The position numbers and the translations under genes were made by a program. Shown here one piece after another: positions 1 through 62,312 of a stretch of 64,000 nt of DNA. Source of the DNA: Eledone cirrhosa. Its lineage: Eukaryota. Under the pieces are notes generated by a model. The model was not told where the DNA came from and did not search any database. It saw only the letters and a program-made list of their open reading frames with translations. The first letter of the stretch is position 1, and each line of letters opens with the position of its first letter. The stretch covers positions 263,872,001-263,936,000 of the forward strand of contig OZ024743.1 of assembly GCA_964016885.1 (NCBI GenBank), read 5' to 3'.

Positions 1-100
1 AATTCCTCTCTGTTCGTCTCCAGGGGTTTATTACTCATGTTTCTCAACTGTTATTTACAGTGAACATCTATTGCTATTAATATATATTTATATATATATA

Positions 101-289
101 ACGAAGGAAATGTGGTAAGGAACCAAGTGGACCATAACGCACCAAAGTACTCAATACTTAGGGTAGTAGAGTGGGTAATAGGAACGAGTAGGACCCCGAC
201 GGCTGAGCTCAAGCCGTTTCGACGGCTAATTCTGCACTAGAATTAGCCGTCGAAACGGCTTGAGCTCAGCCGTCGGGGTCCTACTCGTT

Positions 290-290
<1 letters not shown>
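101..290. mobile_element. Short palindromic PLE pseudo-LTR derivative carrying the 3' half of a hammerhead (family B), in (TA)n
   Basis: Perfect 52-bp inverted repeat 182-233/239-290 with loop GCACT. Right arm reads stem II-CGAAAC-GGCT(TGAGCTC)AGCC-GTC-GGGGTC. The same ~55 bp recurs at 21347-21400 and 51369-51423, each between TA runs. Confidence 0.7.
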
Positions 291-352
<62 letters not shown>

Positions 353-419
353 TAATGAAATAAAAACAAGAACAGGTTCCTTATATTAAAATAATTATCA
401 TTTAAGTGTGAGGTATATA

Positions 420-706
420 TTAATTAAGATTATAGTATTTGAAGGTTTTTCTAATTCTATGATTGCATGATATAATTAATTCGCTTATTTAATAGGATAT
501 CATAGATTTCATGATTTCAAATAGTTCTTGGGAGCATCACCTACACTCATATCTACTATTTAGATAAGGAGTGGCCCTTTTGAGCACGCTCCAGGTCAGG
601 TAATAATTAATATCCTTCTTTCTATAATTATTAATTGCTTCAGCCAAGGAGGTTGTATAAGCCAATGCGGCATTTTTAAAACTATGTTTGTGGGTATTAA
701 ATCGTA
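420..706 (-). pseudogene. Degenerate C-terminus of a PLE GIY-YIG endonuclease (not in ORF track)
   Basis: Manual translation RFNTHKHSFKNAALAYTTSLAEAINNYRKKDINYYLTWSVLKRATPYLNSRYECR*CSQELFEI...LLNK...SCNHRIRKTFKYY aligns with RWYAHTHSF...[48 protein letters not shown]...LLNK...[12 protein letters not shown] of the element at 53473-55616. Confidence 0.85.
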
Positions 707-6824: not shown

Positions 6825-7236
6825 ATTATAAAATAACAGGAGGCTGGACTGGTGTAATTCCTTAAAAGGTTTATTAAACTATGATCATTTCAATGACCGG
6901 GTTCAGTATGAATCCGATGACATCATCAGGTATTCGAAATATAACAAAGGAATATAATAGACAAAATCCATGGGGCTGAAAATCAGAGACATGAGGGTGA
7001 CCGAACATTTAGCAGCATCTACCTCGGTCGGCCGCTCTCAAATAAATGCTAAATGTAAGGTCGCCCTCATGTCTCTGATTTTTAGCCCCATAGATTTTCT
7101 CTATTATATTCCTTTGTTATATTTCGGATACCTGATGATGTCACCGGATTAATACTGAACCCGGTCATTGAAATGATCATAGTATAATAAACCTTTTAAG
7201 GAATTACACCAGTCCAGCCTCCTGTTATTTTATAAT
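6825..7236. mobile_element. Palindromic non-coding element with an HHR in each arm (family E)
   Basis: ~190-bp inverted arms around a ~30-bp loop. A tail at ~6690-6824 is related to 12290-12420 and 20215-20300. Flanked by (TA)n. Confidence 0.85.
7128..7185 (+). ncRNA. Minimal type I hammerhead (mirror copy 6876-6933, -)
   Basis: ATAC-CTGATGA-TGTCACCGG..CCGGTCAT-T-GAAA-T(GATC)A-TA-GTAT with a palindromic stem III loop. AATAAA follows. Confidence 0.8.
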
Positions 7237-8676: not shown

Positions 8677-9210
8677 ATATTGTTATACTTTGGGAGGGTC
8701 ATGTTGCCAATAAGAAACACACGCACCAGCTGCTTTCACTTAAATTTATTATAATAAATTTATAAATTTAGGAGTTTATATATTTCCGGTTGGTTGGTTG
8801 GTTCCACAACCAGATGATTGTTTACATATTGTCAAAGTTCTTTCGTCACACATTCTGTGACATCTTCAGTGACTGAGGATTCTTTTCTTTGTTTTTGTGC
8901 CTCTCCTTTCGTAGGACAGAACAAAGGAGAGGCACAAAAACAAAGAAAAGAATCCCAGTCACAGAATAGGTCGCAGAATGTGTGACGAAAGAACTTTGCA
9001 ATATATAAACAATCATCTGGTTGTGGAACCAACCAACCAACCGGAAATTTATAAATTCCTAAATTTATAAATTTATTATAATAAATTGAAATGAAAGCAA
9101 TAGTGCGTGTGTTTCTTATTGGCAACATGACCCTCCCAAAGTTAACAATATCGGTTTCAACACACGTTTTCAGATAAAGAATCTTGCTAAACAAATTCAG
9201 AAACGAAATA
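8677..9210. mobile_element. Palindromic pseudo-LTR element (family F, related to the PLE at 33997-38320)
   Basis: Arms 8677-8909 and 8923-9150 plus a 60-bp tail into (TA)n. Terminus TTGTTATACTT(T/G)GGGAGGGTCAT is shared with 33997, 38121, 39011, 61497 and (rc) ~15008, ~38278. Confidence 0.85.
8831..8873 (-). ncRNA. Ultra-minimal type I hammerhead (family F)
   Basis: GTCA-CTGAAGA-T-GTCACA(GAATG)TGTGAC-GAAA-G(AA)C-TT-TGAC. Homologues at 61618-61660 (-, CTGAGGA core) and 34203-34244 (-, CTGACGA core, covarying stem II GTTGCA/TGCAAC). Confidence 0.75.
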
Positions 9211-10229
9211 TATATATATATATATATAAATTGCTTTCACCACCACTTCCTACACCCATATTTCATCTACGTGCACACAGACATGCACGCAACATCCGTA
9301 TTTACACATTTAAACACATACATACCACCCAGAAATATCTGCATAAGGAAATACACAGGCATTCTCATTTAGCAACCTCTTTTGTCGCGTTATTGTAACA
9401 ATATAACGATCGTTGTATGTTTATTTTTACTTTTTCACCTTTTTGAGTTAGATTGTATTTTTTCTATCTTACAAGATTATTTGATTCACACAATGACCAG
9501 CCACGCACACATACGATGCTGATACATCTACAAATACATATACACCATCACCAGTTATACTCATATACACACAAGGTGGTAGATATAACACCCACACTCA
9601 CATGCCCTTTTTTATCCTCTTCTATTTATGAAGAGAAGGCGGAGAATTGACAATTGTTAGAACGTTAGATAGAATGCCTTGCGGTATTCCTTTCGTCTCC
9701 CTGCTCTCCGTGTTCAATCACGCCGAGGTCAACATTGTCTTCATGCATTCGGAGTCGAAAGAGAAAGTTACAGCAAATTATTGGGATCTATTCTTCCTTT
9801 ATATCTCTTTCTCATTTCCATTATATCCTTCTCTGGGAGAAATCTGCTGTATCCAGGCCTGGAGAGGAGATAAGCTCTATCACTGTTAAAAATATCCTAG
9901 AAATTCTGTACGTCAACATGGTGCCCATACGATTTCCTCAAAAGTTACGAGACTATGCATGCATCTATGAAACCCATCTTCGCATTACTTCTACCCTCTG
10001 AAACTCATTTTTTTTATCTCTACCCGGTGAAGGACAAAGTTCCGATACGTTCGACCTTTTATTTTTTCCTTTTTGAAGAGTGAGCTTAATAAGACTATTG
10101 TTTTATCTCTTTGTTTGTCTGGTTTTAACTATATATGTATCTACATATACATATATCTATTCATATTTGATGATGTAGTATGAGCGCATGTGAAACTCAA
10201 GATTAACAAGAATCCCTACGTAGTCATAA

Positions 10230-10687
10230 TAAACTAGACCTGGAAAATGCGCTAGCTCAAAAGAGCCACAGAATGTTATAATAAACCTTCAAAAGTGTGG
10301 GACTAGAGTTGTTGCTCAAAATTATTGTAATCATTATCTATCGTACACTCTGTGGCATCCTTTTATAAAAAAGAAACTCATAACGAACTCAAGACGACAC
10401 GATAATTATTTAAGCTAATTTTCAATATCTCATATTAGATGTTTAGTAATGATTAATACGAAATGCACTTAAACCGAATTCTATATTATAAATTCACTTA
10501 AATATTAATAATTATCGTGTCGTCTTGAGTTCGTTATGAGTCTCCTTTTTATAAAAGGATGCCCCAGAGTGTACGATAGATAATGATTACAATATTTTTG
10601 AGCAACAACTTTAAAACCACACTTTTGAAGGTTTATTATAACATTCTGTGGCTCTTTTGAGCTTGCGCAATTTTCAGGTCTAGTTTA
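10230..10687. repeat. Fold-back inverted repeat (~180-bp arms, ~95-bp spacer), no HHR found
   Basis: TAAACTAGACCTGGAAAAT...CACGATAATTATT mirrored by AATAATTATCGTG...CAGGTCTAGTTTA with a few mismatches. Confidence 0.8.
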
Positions 10688-11477
10688 ATATTTTTAAGGC
10701 AACGCTTGTAATAACTCTAGTTAAACATTATATATATTAATAATAAATTATCGTTGTAATGTAATTAGATTATATAATTGTTATTTTATAAATGATCTTA
10801 TAAATATTATTGTAAGATGTATAAAAATATTTTCAGACTTTTAATATAAACAATTACAAAAAACAATCAATATTAAATAACTATATTTAACATAATAATT
10901 GTTATAGTTGAATTAATAAAAAATAAATATTATATACAAATAGTGTAACATAATAATAAAAAAATAATCTAACATAATAATAATAAAATAATCTAACATA
11001 AAACGAATAATAATATGCACAAATGTACAAGTAAAATATGATACAACCAATATTATAAGCATGTTATAACGAACTGGAAAAAAAAATAGTTAATATAAAT
11101 TAAAAAAATCATATATAAATTAACAATATAACTTACCAAAACGAGAAAAATATGTTGATGATAAACGACGAAATACAGGAGGAAGATTCGAAAGCCAAAC
11201 GATAAATAAACGTGCCAACAAAGTGGCGGATGCTTTTGAGCAACGATTACTCTCATTGGTTGATTAGCCAATTAGACGATACATTACAAAAGATGTTTGG
11301 GAGGGATCACCACGGCCATTGAAACCCCTTGAACTTTTTATTCACAAGCTATGCATATATGTGAGAGACACGCAGACTTCAAACATTCTGTTGTTAGTCA
11401 CTGCATGTCTAACAGATGAATACACAGACATGCACACATACACACACACATAAACAGACACGCGCGCGCGCGCACAT

Positions 11478-21342: not shown

Positions 21343-21346
21343 GTAC

Positions 21347-21397
21347 AGAATTAGCCGTCGAAACGGCTTGAACTCAGCCGTCGGGGTCTTACTTGTT

Positions 21398-21400
<3 letters not shown>
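21347..21400 (+). mobile_element. Family B half-hammerhead fragment in (TA)n
   Basis: AGAATTAGCCGTCGAAACGGCTTGAACTCAGCCGTCGGGGTCTTACTTGTTCCT matches 239-290 with few changes. Confidence 0.8.
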
Positions 21401-32976: not shown

Positions 32977-33528
32977 GTAGATAAATCTACCAAGAGTTTA
33001 CGGTAGTGTCCAATCCGTATGAAGAACTCAATGTAATCCGGATATCATGGAAAGAAGAGATGCATTCAAAAATCACTTTCGGTGAAAGATAAACGGAATA
33101 CAGAGTCAAGATAAAATATAAAAAAAATAATGAATAAAACAATGAAACAGTTCCTTATATTAAACAAAAAAAGTTCATTATTTAACGATCGTTTCTAGGA
33201 CATATATGTGTTAGAATTGGCATGCATACTCAACAGATCTATGTACAAAATTATACAAAATTATACAAACTATCAAATTTAATATACATACCAACACATA
33301 CATATGCCGTCTTCAGAAATAATCATTATTTCTGAAGACGGCATATGTATGTGTTGGTATGTATATTAAATTTGATAGTTTGTATAATTTTGTATAATTT
33401 TGTACATAGATCTGTTGAGTATGCATGCCAATTCTAACACATATATGTCCTAGAAACGATCGTTAAATAATGAACTTTTTTTGTTTAATATAAGGAACTG
33501 TTTCATTGTTTTATTCATTATTTTTTAA

Positions 33529-33536
<8 letters not shown>
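32977..33536. mobile_element. Palindromic family A element (arms ~33112-33323 and 33325-33536, 1-nt loop) plus tail
   Basis: CTTCAGAAATAAT-C-ATTATTTCTGAAG at the axis. Arms are essentially identical. Between (TA)n runs. Confidence 0.9.
33325..33471 (+). ncRNA. Type I hammerhead with ~114-nt stem II domain (family A; mirror 33177-33323, -)
   Basis: ATTATTT-CTGAAGA-CGGCATATGTATGTGTTGG...CTAACACATATATGTCCTA-GAAAC-GATC-GTT-AAATAAT with a 7-bp stem I. Confidence 0.85.
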
Positions 33537-33588
<52 letters not shown>

Positions 33589-33592
<4 letters not shown>

Positions 33593-33946
33593 TAAACGGA
33601 AAAGAAAATGCTGACAAATTGTTCACAGTGAAAAATAGTTTAATTAGGAATAAGTGAGAATTAGTAATATTATTGGTTAGTATTCAGTTTTGGTTTTAAG
33701 TTTTACCGGTTGCGCATTTCTAATACTTTTCAAAAATAATTTTGAGATAGAGTGTCCGTGATGTTTGCTCTGATCACGGACGCTCTATCTCAAAATTATT
33801 TTTGAAAAGCATTAGAAATGCGCAACCGGTAGAACTTAAAACCAAAACTGAATACTAACCAATACTATTACTAATTCTCACTTATTCCTAATTAAACTAT
33901 TTTTCACTGTGAACAATTTGTCAGCATTTTCTTTTCCGTTTACCAA
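33589..33946. repeat. Palindromic element (~175-bp arms, 10-nt loop 33763-33772) next to (TA)n
   Basis: Near-perfect mirror. Contains GAAATGCGCA (33815), resembling an HHR 3' half with a palindromic GCGC loop, but no CUGANGA half. Confidence 0.85.
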
Positions 33947-33996
33947 TATATCATAACTTGTGTGTTACACCTCTATTCTTTTAAATATATATATAT

Positions 33997-36900
33997 ATTG
34001 TTATACTTGGGGAGGGTCATATTTGTGTAATATTGCCAGAATTAATAACAGACACACTCACTGTTTGGTTGGTTTTCGCTTTTCGCTTCTGTGTCTTTTA
34101 TATCGGCAATCTAATATACTCGGTCCTCAATGTTGCCATTGATTGACCGACGGTCAAAAATAATACAGATACAATATAGACACAAACACATATATATAGT
34201 TTATCATAAATCTTTCGTTGCACATCTGCAACATCGTCAGTGGTGCTATTGTTTCCTTCTGTTGAATTGTATGGCTACGCCATTTTTATTCAGTCTGTCT
34301 ATATATTTATTTATTTATTTGCTTGTTTGTTTATTTCATTTTGTCTTCTTTGCGCATGCGTTTGCGTGTGTGTATAGTATTTGTTTGATGTGTGATGTGT
34401 GTTCGTGATTGGGTGACTAATGTGTGTTTATGTGTTTGTTGTTATTGTGCTTGTGTATGTATTTATTTATTTATTTATTTATTTATTTTATTTTATTTTA
34501 TTTACTTATTTATACTTCTCTTAAGTCAGTGTTGTTTGTTTGGGTGTTGTTGTTATTCCATTCATTCTTTCTGTTTAGTCTTGGTCTTCTAAGTTCTATT
34601 TCACTGGCCTCTCTGATTTGGCCTATCTGCTGGGTCATTTCTATGTTTAGATATTATTCTAATTTCTATGTTGTCTATCTTACCGTCATGTTGTCTGGCA
34701 TGTTCGTATAGTACTGAGCCGTTTTTTCGTCCTTTTAGTTCCCCCAGTGTTGATCTATCCTTTCACCTATGCTACGAGCTGTCTCACCTATGTATGTTGT
34801 TGTCATCTTTCTGCAGGTACCCTCTGTACATCTTATGCTATAGACTACGTTTCTAGTTTTACAGTTTATCCGGGGGTTTACCTTACATGTGATACATTTC
34901 CTATTGGTGCAGTGGGTTTTCTTAAAAGGGTAGGTTTTGCTGATGAAGGATTTTATGGTGGTTCCTGGCTTTTCTACCACCTTAATTTTTAAGTGGGTCT
35001 TTCTCAGGGCCTTTCTACACTGGTTAGCTAATTTCCCTCCAGGGGTAGCGTCCACAAACATGACACTCTTGTATCTCTGGTTGTCGTAACATGAGGTGGC
35101 TTTCCCTATCTTATGTCTAGCCCTATCTAAGCTATTCCATGATTTGCTACTGTATAATGGGCAAATTCCTTTCATGTCCAGTTCTATGAGGGTCTTATAT
35201 TTCTCCATGGCTCCTTCGTATACTCTGACTGTCTCTTTGGTTGTAGTCAGAGAACTGCATGCGGTTGATGAAGTGTTGGATGTGTCTTTCCATTTCTGTT
35301 GGGTCGCACTTGCGGGACACATTCTTCATCACTCGTACCAAATCTGCGATCAGAATATTAAACTTAGCACTACTGGAGTATCAGGTATTTGGAGGCCATG
35401 GGTTTAGCATAGTGTGAGTGGAGAATTTGGGCTCTCTCGTCTATAGTGTTAATCCAGAGTTCTGTCTCTAATACAGGTGGTCTATTGTTAGGGTGTTTGG
35501 AAGGGTAGTCGATAGTTACAGTTATACTCTGGTGTATGGAATTAGCTATCTGCTGGATGCTTTCCATTGTGCTACGTTCTAAATCAAACTTGTTAGTGCT
35601 CTCTAGTGGGGATGTTCTTATAACTATATTGATATCGTCTACATAACGAGAGTACATGATGAGGTCTATGGGGCTCTTATTAAGGAGATCTTTAAGTCTC
35701 CTTTCCCACCATACCATGAAAAGGTTGGCAACATCACCAGCTATGCTGACGCCAATGGCTGTTCCTTCATTTTGGGTGTAGATCTTCTCGTTGAACTTAA
35801 ATATGTGGCCCTTGAGGCTAGTTTTGATACTAGCCCCTATTGCATGTGCGACCATTTTTCTTACCTGATCATTGTTTTGGGGTGTCCGTATAGCTTTGGT
35901 CCACCCAATCCACCTTCCCATGGGAGCCTTTTTTGCCATAGAGGTTATGGTGGGGGGTCTACCTCTTATGGGTCTACTAGGGCAGAAACGTCTAAGGTCA
36001 TGGCTGTCTAGGTAGTCAGTGTCGTAGGTAAGACTAAGTAGGAGGCCCAGTTCGTCTGTGTCGACGTCGCAGAACTCCACCTCACTCTCAATGATCATCT
36101 CCACACATTTTTTCACAGCAAAATCAATGTTAATGGATGGGTACAGTGACACCACATCAATGCTGCCTATTATGCAGTTGGATAGGTTCCTGTTTTTGTT
36201 ACACTCACTGATTCTGCTGAGGAGATCCTCTGTACTGTCACATACACCCGGGGACATCTTGATTATGGGGCGCATAACCATTGAGAGGAAGTAGGAGATC
36301 CTGTAGTTACTAGCTATATTTGCTCCGCATACGGGTCTTGTTAGTGGTCCTGTTGTCGGGTCGTCGACTGTCTTGTGGTCTTTGCGGAGCCCATACAAGG
36401 GTGGTATGCCATTGTTAGACGCCTGGAAGTTGTTGGCAGTGCGTCTGCTTGGATTTAGGATGTCAGTCCACATCATCATGTGAGCGTTGAGGATTTTCTC
36501 TCTCCCATTGTCTGTTTTTTTTGTGCAATTTCGCTCGTGTTGGTGATGTGGGGTTGCATAGCCTTGATGTAGTTCGGCATTCTATCTATTGACATCCTAC
36601 CAGACTTATCCGTGGGTAGACATACTACCTCACCTTCCCTTGTGCGCTGCTTGAGGCTAACCAAACCTTCTACAGGTTTCCTCCCAAGTTGTTGGGCCTC
36701 TGGTCTGCTCTGTCTCTCAGTATACCTGTCTACTATTGTCTAATCTTATTTCTAGCTATGGTTAACTGTGCCTCTGTCTCGTCATCTATTTGTTGTGGTA
36801 TGCAAACTCTTTTATTAAAGGGTAACCTCGTAGGATAGATATTACCCATCTTATATGTTTTGTCAGCTGGGTTGAAAAATAGTTTCTCTAAGGGGTTGTC

Positions 36901-38319
36901 ATTATATCTATCGTCATAGTTGCGTGTGTTGCTATTATTGTTATCATGGTGGTTGTTGTTGTTCCTATCATTAGCATTATTATTATTGTTATGATTGCTA
37001 GATGTATTGTTGTTTACTTCACCGTTATTGTTGTTGTTACTGTTATTTCTACCATTGTGGTTGTTACTTTTATTATGTTTCTTGTTTTTGTTGTGTCTAT
37101 CATTAATGTTGCTACATGTATTATTTCCATTATTACCACTGTGGTTATTGTTGTTGTTGTTCGTATTGTTACCGTTATTACTACTGTGGTCGCTGCTGCT
37201 GTGTCTGTGGTTAATGTTTCTATTATTATTATTATCGTGGTTGTTGTTGTTCTGTCTATCGTTAGTATTATTACCATTATTACTATTTCTCACTTCCTGC
37301 TATTGTTATTGTTATGGCTGTTATTTCTATACTCAGAGTTATTGTTTATATTACTACTACCGTTATTATTGTTGTTGTTGTTGTTGTTTACCTTTGCATT
37401 CCAACGTATTTTTGTGAAACACTTTTCCAGCTCCGTTTTGCACTCCATAGGGTTAATCTTTTTGTAGATGGCAAATGTTGGTGGTAGCTGCAGGATTTGT
37501 TGTTCTTGTTCACTGATTAAAGTGTTCCCATAAATATTTACTGTGTGGTCATTGGTAAATTCTTCCGGTAGTTTTACATCAGTCATGCGGATATTGTTGA
37601 TGTTATCTGGGTATTTTTGAGAATATTCTATTTTCCTTTCTAGTAGTTTTTTTCTTATTCATCCATTCTAATTTCTTATTGAAGTGCCTATTGCATTCGT
37701 TTCGGGCGTATTTCGTTTCACGTCGGATGACGCTCGTGAAGTTATCCCTCTCGTTTGGCGTGGTGAGATTTCGGACTTCCTTACCGTTAATGCGTTTCTG
37801 TCTGTAAAGTTCGTTGACTTTTGTGTATGTTGTTCTTTTCATATTAACTGTTATTGTGTGTTTTCGACGTTCAGCTTGTGTTTTGTTCAATAATAAATTA
37901 TTTACTTGTTTTGATATGTTTGTTGTGTATATTTTGGAGGAAACACAGTGTTTTAAGAAGCGGATTTGTTCTGTTGTTATTGTAGTTTTTTTTATTGTAG
38001 TTTTTATATAACAGAAAGCAGTGTCTTTCAATAACCTTCAGCTTGGCACAAGCTAATGCCATAACGGCGATGAATTAGTTTTGCGAGGTTTTATATATGA
38101 AATCGTGTGTTGAAACAAATATTGTTATACTTGGGGAGGGTCATATTTGTGTAATATTGCCAGAATTAATAACAGAACACACTCACTGTTTGGTTGTTTT
38201 TTTAATTTATTTTTTTAATTTTTATTATTAATTCTGGCAATATTACACAAATATGACCCTCCCCAAGTATAACAATATTTGTTTCGACACACGATTTCAT
38301 ATAGAAAACCTCGCAAAAC

Positions 38320-38320
<1 letters not shown>
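33997..38320 (-). mobile_element. Near full-length, frameshifted PLE (possibly Nematis-like) with direct and inverted pseudo-LTRs
   Basis: Direct repeats 33997-34073 and 38121-38196, and an inverted copy 38225-38320 (mirror of 38078-38171). HHR 34203-34244 lies downstream of the ORF. Flanked by (TA)n. Confidence 0.92.
34555..38031 (-). pseudogene. PLE polyprotein (N-terminal domain, Asn-rich insert, RT, Cys linker, GIY-YIG) split by frameshifts and stops
   Basis: Consecutive ORFs: IRFLKHC; EQQILQLPPTFA..ELEKCFTKIRW; PTDKSGR; PPLYGLRKDHK..RPVC; SIDVVSLYPSI; QNEGTAIGVS; RYVDD; HYAKPMAS; C..RKCITC; NVVYSIRC..C..YIGETARSIGERIDQH. Manual tail: SVLYEH..IREA..LNRKNEW. Confidence 0.92.
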
Positions 38321-38351
<31 letters not shown>

Positions 38352-51369: not shown

Positions 51370-51423
51370 GGAGTAAGTAACACCCCGACGGCTGAATTCA
51401 AGCCGTTTCGACGGCTAATTCTG
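51369..51423 (-). mobile_element. Family B half-hammerhead fragment nested in a (TA)n run of the Hydra-like element
   Basis: Matches 182-233. Absent from the mirrored region (~56540-56570). Confidence 0.8.
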
Positions 51424-51461
<38 letters not shown>

Positions 51462-59948: not shown

Positions 59949-60475
59949 TATGAAGAGAGAAGAAACATTTAGATATAATTAGTAATAAAATGTATCATAC
60001 CTAAACTGTTCCTAAATTCCTCGACTACGTAGTTTCGTGGCATAAACAAAAACAATATATCAAAGATATAGAGTCCTTGTGAGGTCTGCCGACTTATCAA
60101 GAGGATACCTCATTTTACTAGTCTCAAGAACGCGTCTACACGACGTGAGAAAGAATCCCAAAAGGCGGAGGGGGAGATAGTCACGCGATATAACGGTCGA
60201 GAAACAGAGCTAAGCCTCTTATAACCACGAAGAAAATACCACGGAGGCGGAGGGGGTATTCATATCGAGGCCGTCTCACGTCGTGTAGACGCGTTCTTGA
60301 GACTAGTAAAATGAGGTATCCTCTTGATAAGTCGGCAGACCTCACAAGGACTCTATATCTTTGATATATTGTTTTTGTTTATGCCACGAAACTACGTAGT
60401 CGAGGAATTTAGGAACAGTTTAGGTATGATACATTTTATTACTAATTATATCTAAATGTTTCTTCTCTCTTCATA
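59949..60475. mobile_element. Palindromic element with identical ~200-bp arms, 123-bp spacer and U3-A8 variant hammerheads (family M)
   Basis: Arms 59949-60150 and 60274-60475, with no mismatch noticed by eye. The right end runs into (TA)n. Confidence 0.9.
60319..60406 (+). ncRNA. Type I hammerhead with UUGAUAA core (mirror ~60018-60105, -)
   Basis: TCCTC-TTGATAA-GTCGGCA...TGCCAC-GAAAC-TACGTA-GTC-GAGGA with palindromic stem III ACTACGTAGT. Confidence 0.8.
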
Positions 60476-61762: not shown

Positions 61763-61809
<47 letters not shown>

Positions 61810-61818
<9 letters not shown>

Positions 61819-62312
61819 GTAGAGAATAACATGGTCAACAGTACAAAAAAGGGATTTATTTGCAGTCTAACAATTGTTTCAATGACAGAGATGTCTAAAA
61901 ATTGCTGAACACTAAATGCAGTGCCACTGAATTTTAAATACGATGTTAACTCTATTAGATCTTCAGAAACAGTTTCTGAAGATCTAATAGAGTTAACATC
62001 GTATTTACAATTGAGTGGCACTGCTTTTAGTGTTCAGTAATTTTTAGACATCTCTATCAGTGAAACAATTGTTAGACGGCAAATAAATCCCCTTTTTTGT
62101 ACTGTTGACCATGTTATTTTCCACGTTTTTAATATATATATTTTATTACTCCAAGATAAACTTACATAGGAATACAAGTGAAATCATAAACTCGTCATCT
62201 ACGTAAACCTCTTGTTGAGTCAAGCAACGCCGTACGCTAAAACTATCCATAATAAGAAGCATTCACAACCCTTAATTGGATTACCTATAACGATATTTTG
62301 TTATCCTTTATA
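61810..62312. mobile_element. Palindromic element (arms 61810-61970 and 61972-62133, 1-nt loop) plus tail, family N
   Basis: Axis CTTCAGAAAC-A-GTTTCTGAAG. Flanked by (TA)n. Confidence 0.88.
61972..62077 (+). ncRNA. Type I hammerhead with ~79-nt stem II domain (family N; mirror 61865-61970, -)
   Basis: GTTT-CTGAAGA-TCTAATAGAG...CTCTATCAGT-GAAAC-AATT-GTT-AGAC, followed by AATAAA. Confidence 0.8.

What the first reader, a model, noticed from the sequence alone, without database searches (positions are those of the whole stretch)
182..290. Palindrome axis is the hammerhead's own stem II hairpin
Seen: the right arm is a complete HHR 3' half (stem II-GAAAC-stem III-GUC-stem I'). The 5' half, expected as GACCCC-CTGANGA, is replaced by the mirror image starting from the stem II hairpin. 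The copies at 21347 and 51423 also break at this loop. Inference: nascent cDNA snaps back on the ribozyme hairpin and self-primes second-strand synthesis, a concrete mechanism for PLE inverted pseudo-LTRs.
Basis: partly seen in the sequence, partly recalled or inferred. Interest (0 to 1): 0.72.

Follow-up and report, generated by a model that had tools for sequence, protein, structure and literature searches.

The report
Penelope palindromes join at RNA start
This small mirror-image repeat is one of thousands of stub insertions of a Penelope-type jumping gene, and its centre likely marks the capped start of the element's RNA, where two separately made DNA copies were likely joined head to head, rather than a fold-back on the ribozyme hairpin, which would explain how this class builds its inverted ends.

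Summary
The palindrome is real: two head-to-head stubs of a Hydra-clade Penelope-like element in (TA)n. The family's 21-mer has 32,539 exact copies. Intact copies exist, but their 5' hammerhead half is ACCCC-(U/C)UGA(G/U)AA-GCUCGGCUA, not CUGANGA-CGGCUAAUUCU (0 hits). So the palindrome stem is not stem II; the axis lies in the roughly 37-nt stem II loop. Breaks do cluster there: 56 of 100 tail-anchored arms and 57 of 71 partner arms end within 13 nt. Snap-back on stem II is not supported. Its predicted product was absent in 15 of 37 candidate hits read, only 3 of 71 junctions have clean fold-back geometry, and in 31 of 71 the supposed copy is longer than its template. The edge is one base, the A of an initiator-like T(T/C)AGTC 231 nt before the ATG, often preceded by a non-native G (3,045 versus 599 A) or a T-run. 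Best reading: both ends of a DNA cut prime cDNA at two fixed sites, both cDNAs run off the capped RNA start, and they are end-joined. The start site has no RNA evidence yet. The scan reached this reading earlier on other DNA of this genome.

The parts
79..100 (.). (TA)-rich target flank at the 3' end of the tail-bearing arm
101..238 (-). Tail-bearing arm: element positions -5 to +132 (0 = first A of AGAATT), one substitution at -2; inferred cDNA primed at the distal start site
   Evidence: the same 3' end is followed by TA repeats in nearly all loci
101..179 (-). 80-nt one-sided tail (+54 to +132) between the two inferred reverse-transcription start sites; it is part of the 5' UTR upstream of the ORF
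   Evidence: L163 continues from the tail into the ORF
193..228 (-). Hammerhead 3' half in the left arm (stem II 3' strand, GAAA, stem III, C17, stem I 3' strand); 5' half absent
234..239 (.). Junction: left arm begins at the inferred RNA start (A at -5 = 238); base 239 is shared with the first base of the right arm. The same junction type (partner ends TTCT, arm starts AGTCC) recurs in 5 of 82 arms read
239..293 (+). Tail-less arm: positions 0 to +54; inferred cDNA primed at the proximal start site, at the base of the extended stem I
244..279 (+). Hammerhead 3' half in the right arm: stem II 3' strand 244-251, GAAA 252-255, stem III 255-259/269-273, C17 at 274, stem I 3' strand 275-279
   Evidence: fold of intact copies; Rfam does not detect it
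292..349 (.). (TA)n target flank at the 3' end of the tail-less arm
21343..21399 (+). Single tail-less arm of the same family, 5' end at -4, between simple repeats; no inversion
51370..51424 (-). Single tail-less arm of the same family, 5' end at about -2, between simple repeats; no inversion

Best explanation
The palindrome is two stubs of a Hydra-clade Penelope-like retroelement joined head to head in a TA repeat, likely made when both ends of one DNA cut primed reverse transcription and both copies ran off the likely capped start of the element's RNA. Steps. (1) Inferred: a promoter in the pseudo-LTR starts the RNA at the A of T(T/C)AGTC, inside the hammerhead's stem II loop and 231 nt before the ATG, so this RNA lacks the 5' half of the ribozyme. 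(2) Inferred from flanks and from in vitro work on another clade: the GIY-YIG endonuclease cuts both strands in (TA)n. (3) Shown as fixed end points, inferred as priming sites: one DNA end primes at about +54 and the other at about +133, each at a TA. (4) Shown as a sharp edge, inferred as run-off: both cDNAs stop at -5, 60 and 138 nt later, often gaining a C opposite the cap or an untemplated A-run. (5) Inferred: the two cDNA ends are trimmed and joined bluntly, by 1-6 nt of microhomology, or with short inserts. When priming happens instead in the downstream pseudo-LTR of a longer transcript, the arms run through the whole hammerhead and give the 0.2-5 kb inverted copies.
For: Edge: exact counts fall from 18,307 at -5 to 4,466 at -12 (main alleles only) and 1,960 at the 5' half (four variants only). 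Contig depth in two public runs rises more than tenfold across the same place (these may be the assembly's own sample). 56 of 100 tail arms and 57 of 71 partner arms end in -10..+2. Untemplated ends: G before AGTCC 3,045 versus A 599, while opposite arms would offer A more often than G (49 versus 29); 0 of 30 G copies keep the native upstream sequence; 7 of 7 chosen double-G loci have GAGTCC on both arms with 0-6 nt between them. All 10 arms that seem to end at -8 carry a fourth, non-native T, and some carry long T-runs. Independence of arms: the tail-less arm is longer in 31 of 71, the tail arm in 25, equal in 15; the tail-less arm is at least 10 nt longer in 16 against 2 the other way. One template: arms agree at subfamily sites in 41-44 of 46 pairs. 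Position: 231 nt upstream of the ATG in a pLTR-ORF copy. A second family breaks at TTC-ATTA just 5' of stem I in 10 of 30 loci, 2 of them with a G directly before the A. Literature: a Poseidon PLE protein cuts and extends both strands and starts at two internal sites that define the tail (PMC11167929); untemplated G marks capped LINE-1 and SVA 5' ends (PMC4859970); the Penelope start site lies in the pLTR (PMC2377424).
Against: No RNA evidence for the start site: the RNA run laid gave 0 records and only contigs were available. Up to 18 of 30 G's could also be a templated base of the opposite arm (about 12-13 by eye), so the cap signal is weaker than 5:1. The peak is spread over -10..+2, which needs trimming and A-tailing as extra assumptions, and a few arms keep native bases to -9 or -13. 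In 25 of 71 the tail arm is the longer one, which does not exclude fold-back for those. 15 of 100 junctions were corrected by eye. The 100 loci come from the first 26 Mb of one contig and were anchored on an exact motif, which favours young copies. The initiator consensus is recalled, short and AT-rich. The third family tested shows only 4 of 30 truncations near its motif.
Confidence: 0.66

Rival explanations
1. One reading: nascent cDNA snaps back on the hammerhead's own stem II hairpin and self-primes the second arm.
For: Breaks lie between the two strands of stem II. Arms share subfamily alleles. Self-priming has been proposed for Penelope palindromes (PMC3846280). One junction (L134) fits a 6-bp hairpin formed by the stem II 3' strand and stem III.
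Against: The real stem II 5' strand is absent from the stubs. The predicted product pattern has 37 hits genome-wide; none of 15 read, including all 3 with the expected letters, keeps the loop. 31 of 71 junctions have the wrong asymmetry and only 3 of 71 have clean fold-back geometry. Single arms break at the same site. Other families break 5' of stem I.
Confidence: 0.04
2. One cDNA runs off the RNA start, then folds back on itself through 1-2 bp made by the cap C or an added A and copies itself to the other target end.
For: Recurrent junctions TTCTG-AGTCC (6 of 30 G loci) and TTCT-AGTCC (5 of 82; also this window) can be drawn as 1-2 bp hairpins with 3-5 nt loops. Arms share alleles.
Against: The same junction occurs with the tail-less arm as the longer one (L138, L175), where fold-back cannot supply the tail. 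Double-G junctions with 0-1 nt between arms leave no loop. The second arm ends at a fixed RNA site (+54), not at random.
Confidence: 0.1
3. Two cDNAs as in the best explanation, but the stop at -5 is a reverse-transcriptase pause or an RNA cut in the stem II loop, not a transcription start.
For: The loop can form a distal hairpin whose 3' strand covers -8..-1. The peak is 13 nt wide. There is no RNA data.
Against: A pause or cut does not predict a non-native G at exactly -6. Few arms end at the 3' foot of the strong stem II helix or at the hammerhead cut site (4 arm ends at +34..+38 among 100 tail and 71 partner arms). Arms that pass -12 mostly run on for hundreds of bases.
Confidence: 0.14
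4. Long inverted insertions were later shortened by palindrome-driven deletion to the present stubs.
For: Long head-to-head copies exist (one search lists pairs 0.2-5 kb apart), and some arms carry internal deletions between repeated GCCGTC words (L042, L119, L145).
Against: Deletion would not stop at one base with an added G or T-run, and near-identical arms (21 of 46 identical over 46 nt) already show the edge.
Confidence: 0.04

Closest known systems
Hydra clade of Penelope-like elements (Craig et al. 2021, PMC8557442; passages and section 11 read)
   Same: Single ORF with RT and C-terminal GIY-YIG; DKT, CxCX5C linker, CxxC and CxH motifs; (TA)n targets; hammerhead in the pLTR; inverted 5'-truncated copy with a one-sided tail.
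   Different: RWR instead of RWK; tail of about 80 nt rather than 30-40; hammerhead core U3-A8 or C3/A8 with a large stem II loop; most copies are stubs ending at one base. The passages read leave the origin of inverted structures open.
Poseidon element PAc in vitro (Frangieh et al. 2024, PMC11167929; parts 1-2 of 4 read)
   Same: Cleavage and extension of both strands at AT-rich DNA; two internal reverse-transcription start sites bounding the tail; hammerhead cleavage not needed.
   Different: Different clade; the text read does not address head-to-head joining or run-off at a capped start.
LINE-1 twin priming and cap-derived G (PMC4859970, passages)
   Same: Two primers from one target break give an inversion with small indels; untemplated G at RNA 5' ends.
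   Different: Here both cDNAs copy the same RNA segment and reach the RNA start, so the product is a palindrome. That L1 twin-primed segments normally do not overlap is recalled.
Penelope self-priming proposal (Arkhipova et al. 2013, PMC3846280, passages)
   Same: Head-to-head inverted pLTRs with a palindrome at the junction, one-sided tail, TATA and Inr-like motifs in the pLTR.
   Different: That paper invokes self-priming on an antisense template; the arm asymmetry and added G here point to two sense-templated cDNAs.
PLE hammerhead variants (Cervera and De la Pena 2014, PMC4209133; parts 1-2 of 4 read)
   Same: Type I motif in the pLTR, U3-A8 covariation, G10.1-C11.1 pair, long helix II, short helix I.
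   Different: A full 5-bp stem III and a loop II of about 37 nt that holds the inferred start site; about a third of intact alleles have a C3/A8 mismatch.

Membership tests
EN+ Penelope-like element | Single ORF with RT and GIY-YIG endonuclease | tested here: met
   710-aa frame in L166 with YRDD and VIY...YIG motifs; Pfam gave no hit, so this rests on motifs
EN+ Penelope-like element | pLTR before and after the ORF; inverted 5'-truncated copy; one-sided tail | tested here: met
   L163 has the pLTR upstream of the ATG and again about 3.06 kb later; 71 of 100 tail arms have an adjacent inverted arm
Hydra clade | DKT in place of DKG | tested here: met
   DKT at residue 109
Hydra clade | CxCX5C linker; CxxC and CxH flanking the conserved E and N | tested here: met
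   CNCPDRSIC 564, CNLC 662, CKH 690
Hydra clade | RWK motif | tested here: inconclusive
   RWR at residue 27, a conservative change
Hydra clade | (TA)n insertion | tested here: met
   Tail ends are followed by TA-type repeats except 4 that read on into the 5' UTR
Hydra clade | RT phylogeny within Hydra | not tested
   No reference Hydra proteins were fetched
Neptune/Nematis clades | CX2-5CxxC linker and DKG | tested here: not met
   Linker is CxCX5C and the motif is DKT; my first label, Neptune-like, was dropped
Type I hammerhead (intact family copies) | Core with 3-8 pair, GAAA, G10.1-C11.1, UH and three stems | tested here: met
   Constrained fold within 0.4-3.5 kcal/mol of the minimum in 4 of 4 copies; TTGAGAA 26 and TTGATAA 11 of 61 alleles
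Type I hammerhead (intact family copies) | Canonical CUGANGA core | tested here: not met
   0 hits next to the expected stem; 21 of 61 alleles have a C3/A8 mismatch; no Rfam hammerhead hit
Type I hammerhead (intact family copies) | Self-cleavage | not testable with these tools
   Needs an in vitro assay
Type I hammerhead (window arms) | 5' half present | tested here: not met
   Both arms begin at -5 or 0
RNA polymerase II start site | Capped RNA 5' ends at -5 | tested here: inconclusive
   Only indirect: added G and sharp edge; no usable RNA reads

The most novel reading that the evidence does not exclude
Penelope-like elements insert by two-ended target-primed reverse transcription, with two strong-stop-like cDNAs that run off the capped RNA start and are joined head to head. 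In this family the promoter fires from inside the hammerhead, so start-site transcripts carry half a ribozyme and only read-through transcripts can fold a whole one.
Probability: 0.55. Interest if true: 0.7.

Novelty: new variant of a known kind. Interest (0 to 1): 0.5.

Why it matters
How Penelope-like elements make inverted pLTRs and one-sided tails is stated as unresolved in PMC8557442, and the one explicit proposal I found is self-priming on an antisense template (PMC3846280). A family with tens of thousands of junctions gives base-level tests that favour two sense-templated cDNAs ending at a capped start. It predicts a start site to one nucleotide, checkable by 5' RACE or CAGE and with the existing in vitro system. 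It also implies thousands of compact hairpins in this genome: 21 head-to-head pairs among the first 100 listed hits (counted by hand). The element itself is a member of a described clade.

Tried and rejected
Rfam found no hammerhead in the window or in an intact copy. Pfam found nothing in the two ORFs. Junction mapping was distorted by TA flanks in the references or by single mismatches and was replaced. RNA evidence: the four listed RNA runs held only a small share of the words; the one laid gave 0 records and all were contigs, so no start site could be read. Splice-acceptor reading of TTTAG/TCC: rejected because arms keep the AG and the 30 G copies share no upstream exon. Hammerhead cleavage as source of the 5' ends: only 4 arm ends at +34..+38. 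A second start at -9: not supported; 6 of 9 such arms are the partner's AATTC abutting AGTCC. Assembly artefact: rejected on fixed end points, inserts and differences between arms. Neptune label: dropped. A direct genome-wide count of palindromes by spacer length was not obtained; the estimate rests on listed hits. Two arms classed as 'through' (L129, L288) are A/T-run junctions, so 22 of 82, not 24, pass the edge.

Full report
Coordinates. Element positions are counted from the first A of AGAATT (0); upstream is negative.

Observation. Window 178-233 and 239-294 are 56-nt arms, 98% complementary, 5 nt apart. The 21-mer occurs 4 times in the window and never in 100 shuffles. The left arm runs on to 101 through a further 80 nt, and both arms end in (TA)n. 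The copies at 21347 and 51422 are single arms. In the 3.0-Gb own genome the 21-mer has 32,539 exact matches and the reversed control 0; 21 head-to-head pairs with spacers of 2-22 nt are among the first 100 listed (counted by hand).

The family. [quoted passage not shown] DKT, CxCX5C, CxxC, CxH and (TA)n targets match the Hydra clade as described in PMC8557442 section 11; RWK appears as RWR. The Hydra lead came from earlier scan notes and was then checked; no tree was built. In L163 the segment found in the stubs lies upstream of the ORF, with the A at -5 231 nt before the ATG, and again about 3.06 kb later. The stubs are thus the front of the pLTR. Arms end at two fixed places, about +54 and about +133, each at a TA.

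The hammerhead. Intact copies read ACCCC, then (T/C)TGA(G/T)AA, then GCTCGGCTATT (1,960 exact hits for four variants). Among 61 distinct alleles the cores are TTGAGAA 26, CTGAGAA 20, TTGATAA 11, others 4. U3-A8 is a described PLE covariation (PMC4209133). A constrained fold gives stems I, II (G10.1-C11.1 plus CGGCUA/UAGCCG) and III within 0.4-3.5 kcal/mol of the minimum in 4 of 4 copies. The unconstrained minimum is a different fold in three of them, and Rfam does not detect the motif. The palindrome stem is therefore not stem II, and the axis sits in a loop of about 37 nt.

Breaks cluster. I took the first 100 listed of 23,151 matches to a tail motif, which does not select for the 5' break. 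56 tail arms end in -10..+2, 37 downstream, 1 at -16, and 6 run past the whole hammerhead. 71 have an adjacent inverted arm, and 57 of those end in -10..+2 (15 junctions corrected by eye). Genome counts fall from 18,307 at -5 to 4,466 at -12 (the second pattern covers 42 of 61 alleles). Contig depth in two public runs rises more than tenfold over the same stretch (possibly not independent of the assembly).

Snap-back on stem II fails four tests. First, its product would keep the loop as spacer; the diagnostic pattern has 37 hits, and none of 15 read, including all 3 with the expected letters, is such a product. Second, fold-back from the tail arm cannot make a longer partner, and fold-back from the tail-less arm cannot supply the tail; yet the tail-less arm is longer in 31 of 71, by at least 10 nt in 16, against 25 and 2 the other way. 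Third, only 3 of 71 junctions have homology plus a loop of at least 3 nt; 34 have microhomology, 14 are blunt and 23 have inserts. Fourth, 7 of 23 unpaired arms break in the same window. Arms do share subfamily alleles in 41-44 of 46 pairs, so both come from one template; that fits either model.

The edge is one base. The native base at -6 is T or C. A G stands there in 3,045 copies and an A in 599, although opposite arms would present A more often than G (49 versus 29). None of 30 G copies keeps the native upstream sequence; up to 18 of the 30 G's could also belong to the opposite arm, which weakens but does not remove the excess. Seven loci picked because both arms were in the G list show GAGTCC on both sides with 0-6 nt between. 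Of 82 arms that keep the A at -5, 22 pass through and 60 stop by -13. All 10 that appear to end at -8 carry a fourth, non-native T, as expected from untemplated A added to a cDNA that ended at -5. The site reads T(T/C)AGTC, like an initiator (consensus recalled), with a TATA-like TATTTAAA about 29 nt upstream in some subfamilies. Untemplated G is taken as the mark of a reverse-transcribed cap in LINE-1 and SVA (PMC4859970). The Drosophila Penelope start site is in the pLTR (PMC2377424).

Other families. For the palindrome at 33111-33537, 10 of 30 loci break at TTC-ATTA immediately 5' of stem I, two with a G directly before the A. For 61802-62141, 4 of 30 are truncated near AAC-AGTTT, one with a G. 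The axis does not follow stem II across families.

Mechanism. Both ends of a cut in (TA)n likely prime cDNA at +54 and +133, as a Poseidon protein extends both strands from two internal sites in vitro (PMC11167929). Both cDNAs likely run off the capped start at -5, gain C or A, and are end-joined. Fixed ends, the edge, the added bases and the arm asymmetry are shown; the promoter, the cap, the double cut and the joining route are inferred. In the window the tail arm starts at -5 and shares one base with a partner trimmed to 0, a junction type seen in 5 of 82 arms. This single junction could also be drawn as a 2-bp hairpin, so the case rests on the family.

Against. There is no RNA evidence. 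The peak is 13 nt wide. The loci come from one stretch of one contig and favour young copies. Fold-back may account for a minority.

Prior knowledge. Inverted truncated copies with a one-sided tail are standard for PLEs (PMC8557442), and self-priming was proposed for them (PMC3846280). Seven searches found no paper stating two-ended priming with run-off at a capped start for PLEs; the library lacks most subscription papers, older PLE reviews were not read, and no supplements were read. Papers seen: PMC11167929 and PMC4209133 parts 1-2 of 4; PMC8557442 passages and section 11; PMC3846280, PMC2377424, PMC4859970 and bioRxiv 10.64898/2026.07.22.740005 passages; others as listings only. I noted the start-site reading, before the look-up showed that the scan had reached it on other DNA of this genome; those notes are not independent support.

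Verdict. A described element clade, with a testable model for an open step. Interest 0.5.

Noticed in passing
window 6825-7236, 8677-9151, 10226-10691, 33111-33537, 33540-33998, 38076-38321, 61802-62141, 59949-60475: At least eight more palindromic insertions of unrelated sequence; several carry CUGANGA hammerhead-like cores whose axis lies 5' of the motif.
   Followed up: partly
L321 (G000:C1:27009680-27010200): Head-to-tail units about 257 bp apart that begin at the inferred start site with a T-run and end just inside the ORF; suggests template jumping from the RNA 5' end.
   Followed up: no
L150 and L034, upstream of the tail arm: The arm ends at -4 or -5 and is joined to a sense-oriented internal piece of the same element, a possible route to partial tandems.
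   Followed up: no
L068:1495-1615: The proximal end point (+54) lies at the foot of an extension of stem I (UGGAA/UUCCU), so hammerhead-fold geometry may set that priming site.
   Followed up: no
L091/L092 and L043: Head-to-head pairs in which both arms carry the tail, so the same site can be used at both DNA ends.
   Followed up: no
L042, L113, L119, L145: Internal deletions between the two GCCGTC words of stems II and III.
   Followed up: no
window 385-464 and 716-796: 81-nt inverted arms, 88% complementary, 251 nt apart, next to the finding; a different element.
   Followed up: no
window 50752, 55791, 57158, 60901: A repeated minimal hammerhead-like motif with a CUGAUGA core, in inverted pairs.
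   Followed up: no
L133, L155, L174, L228, L231, L252, L278: New copies often sit in the (TA)n left beside an older Penelope-like copy, building nested clusters.
   Followed up: no
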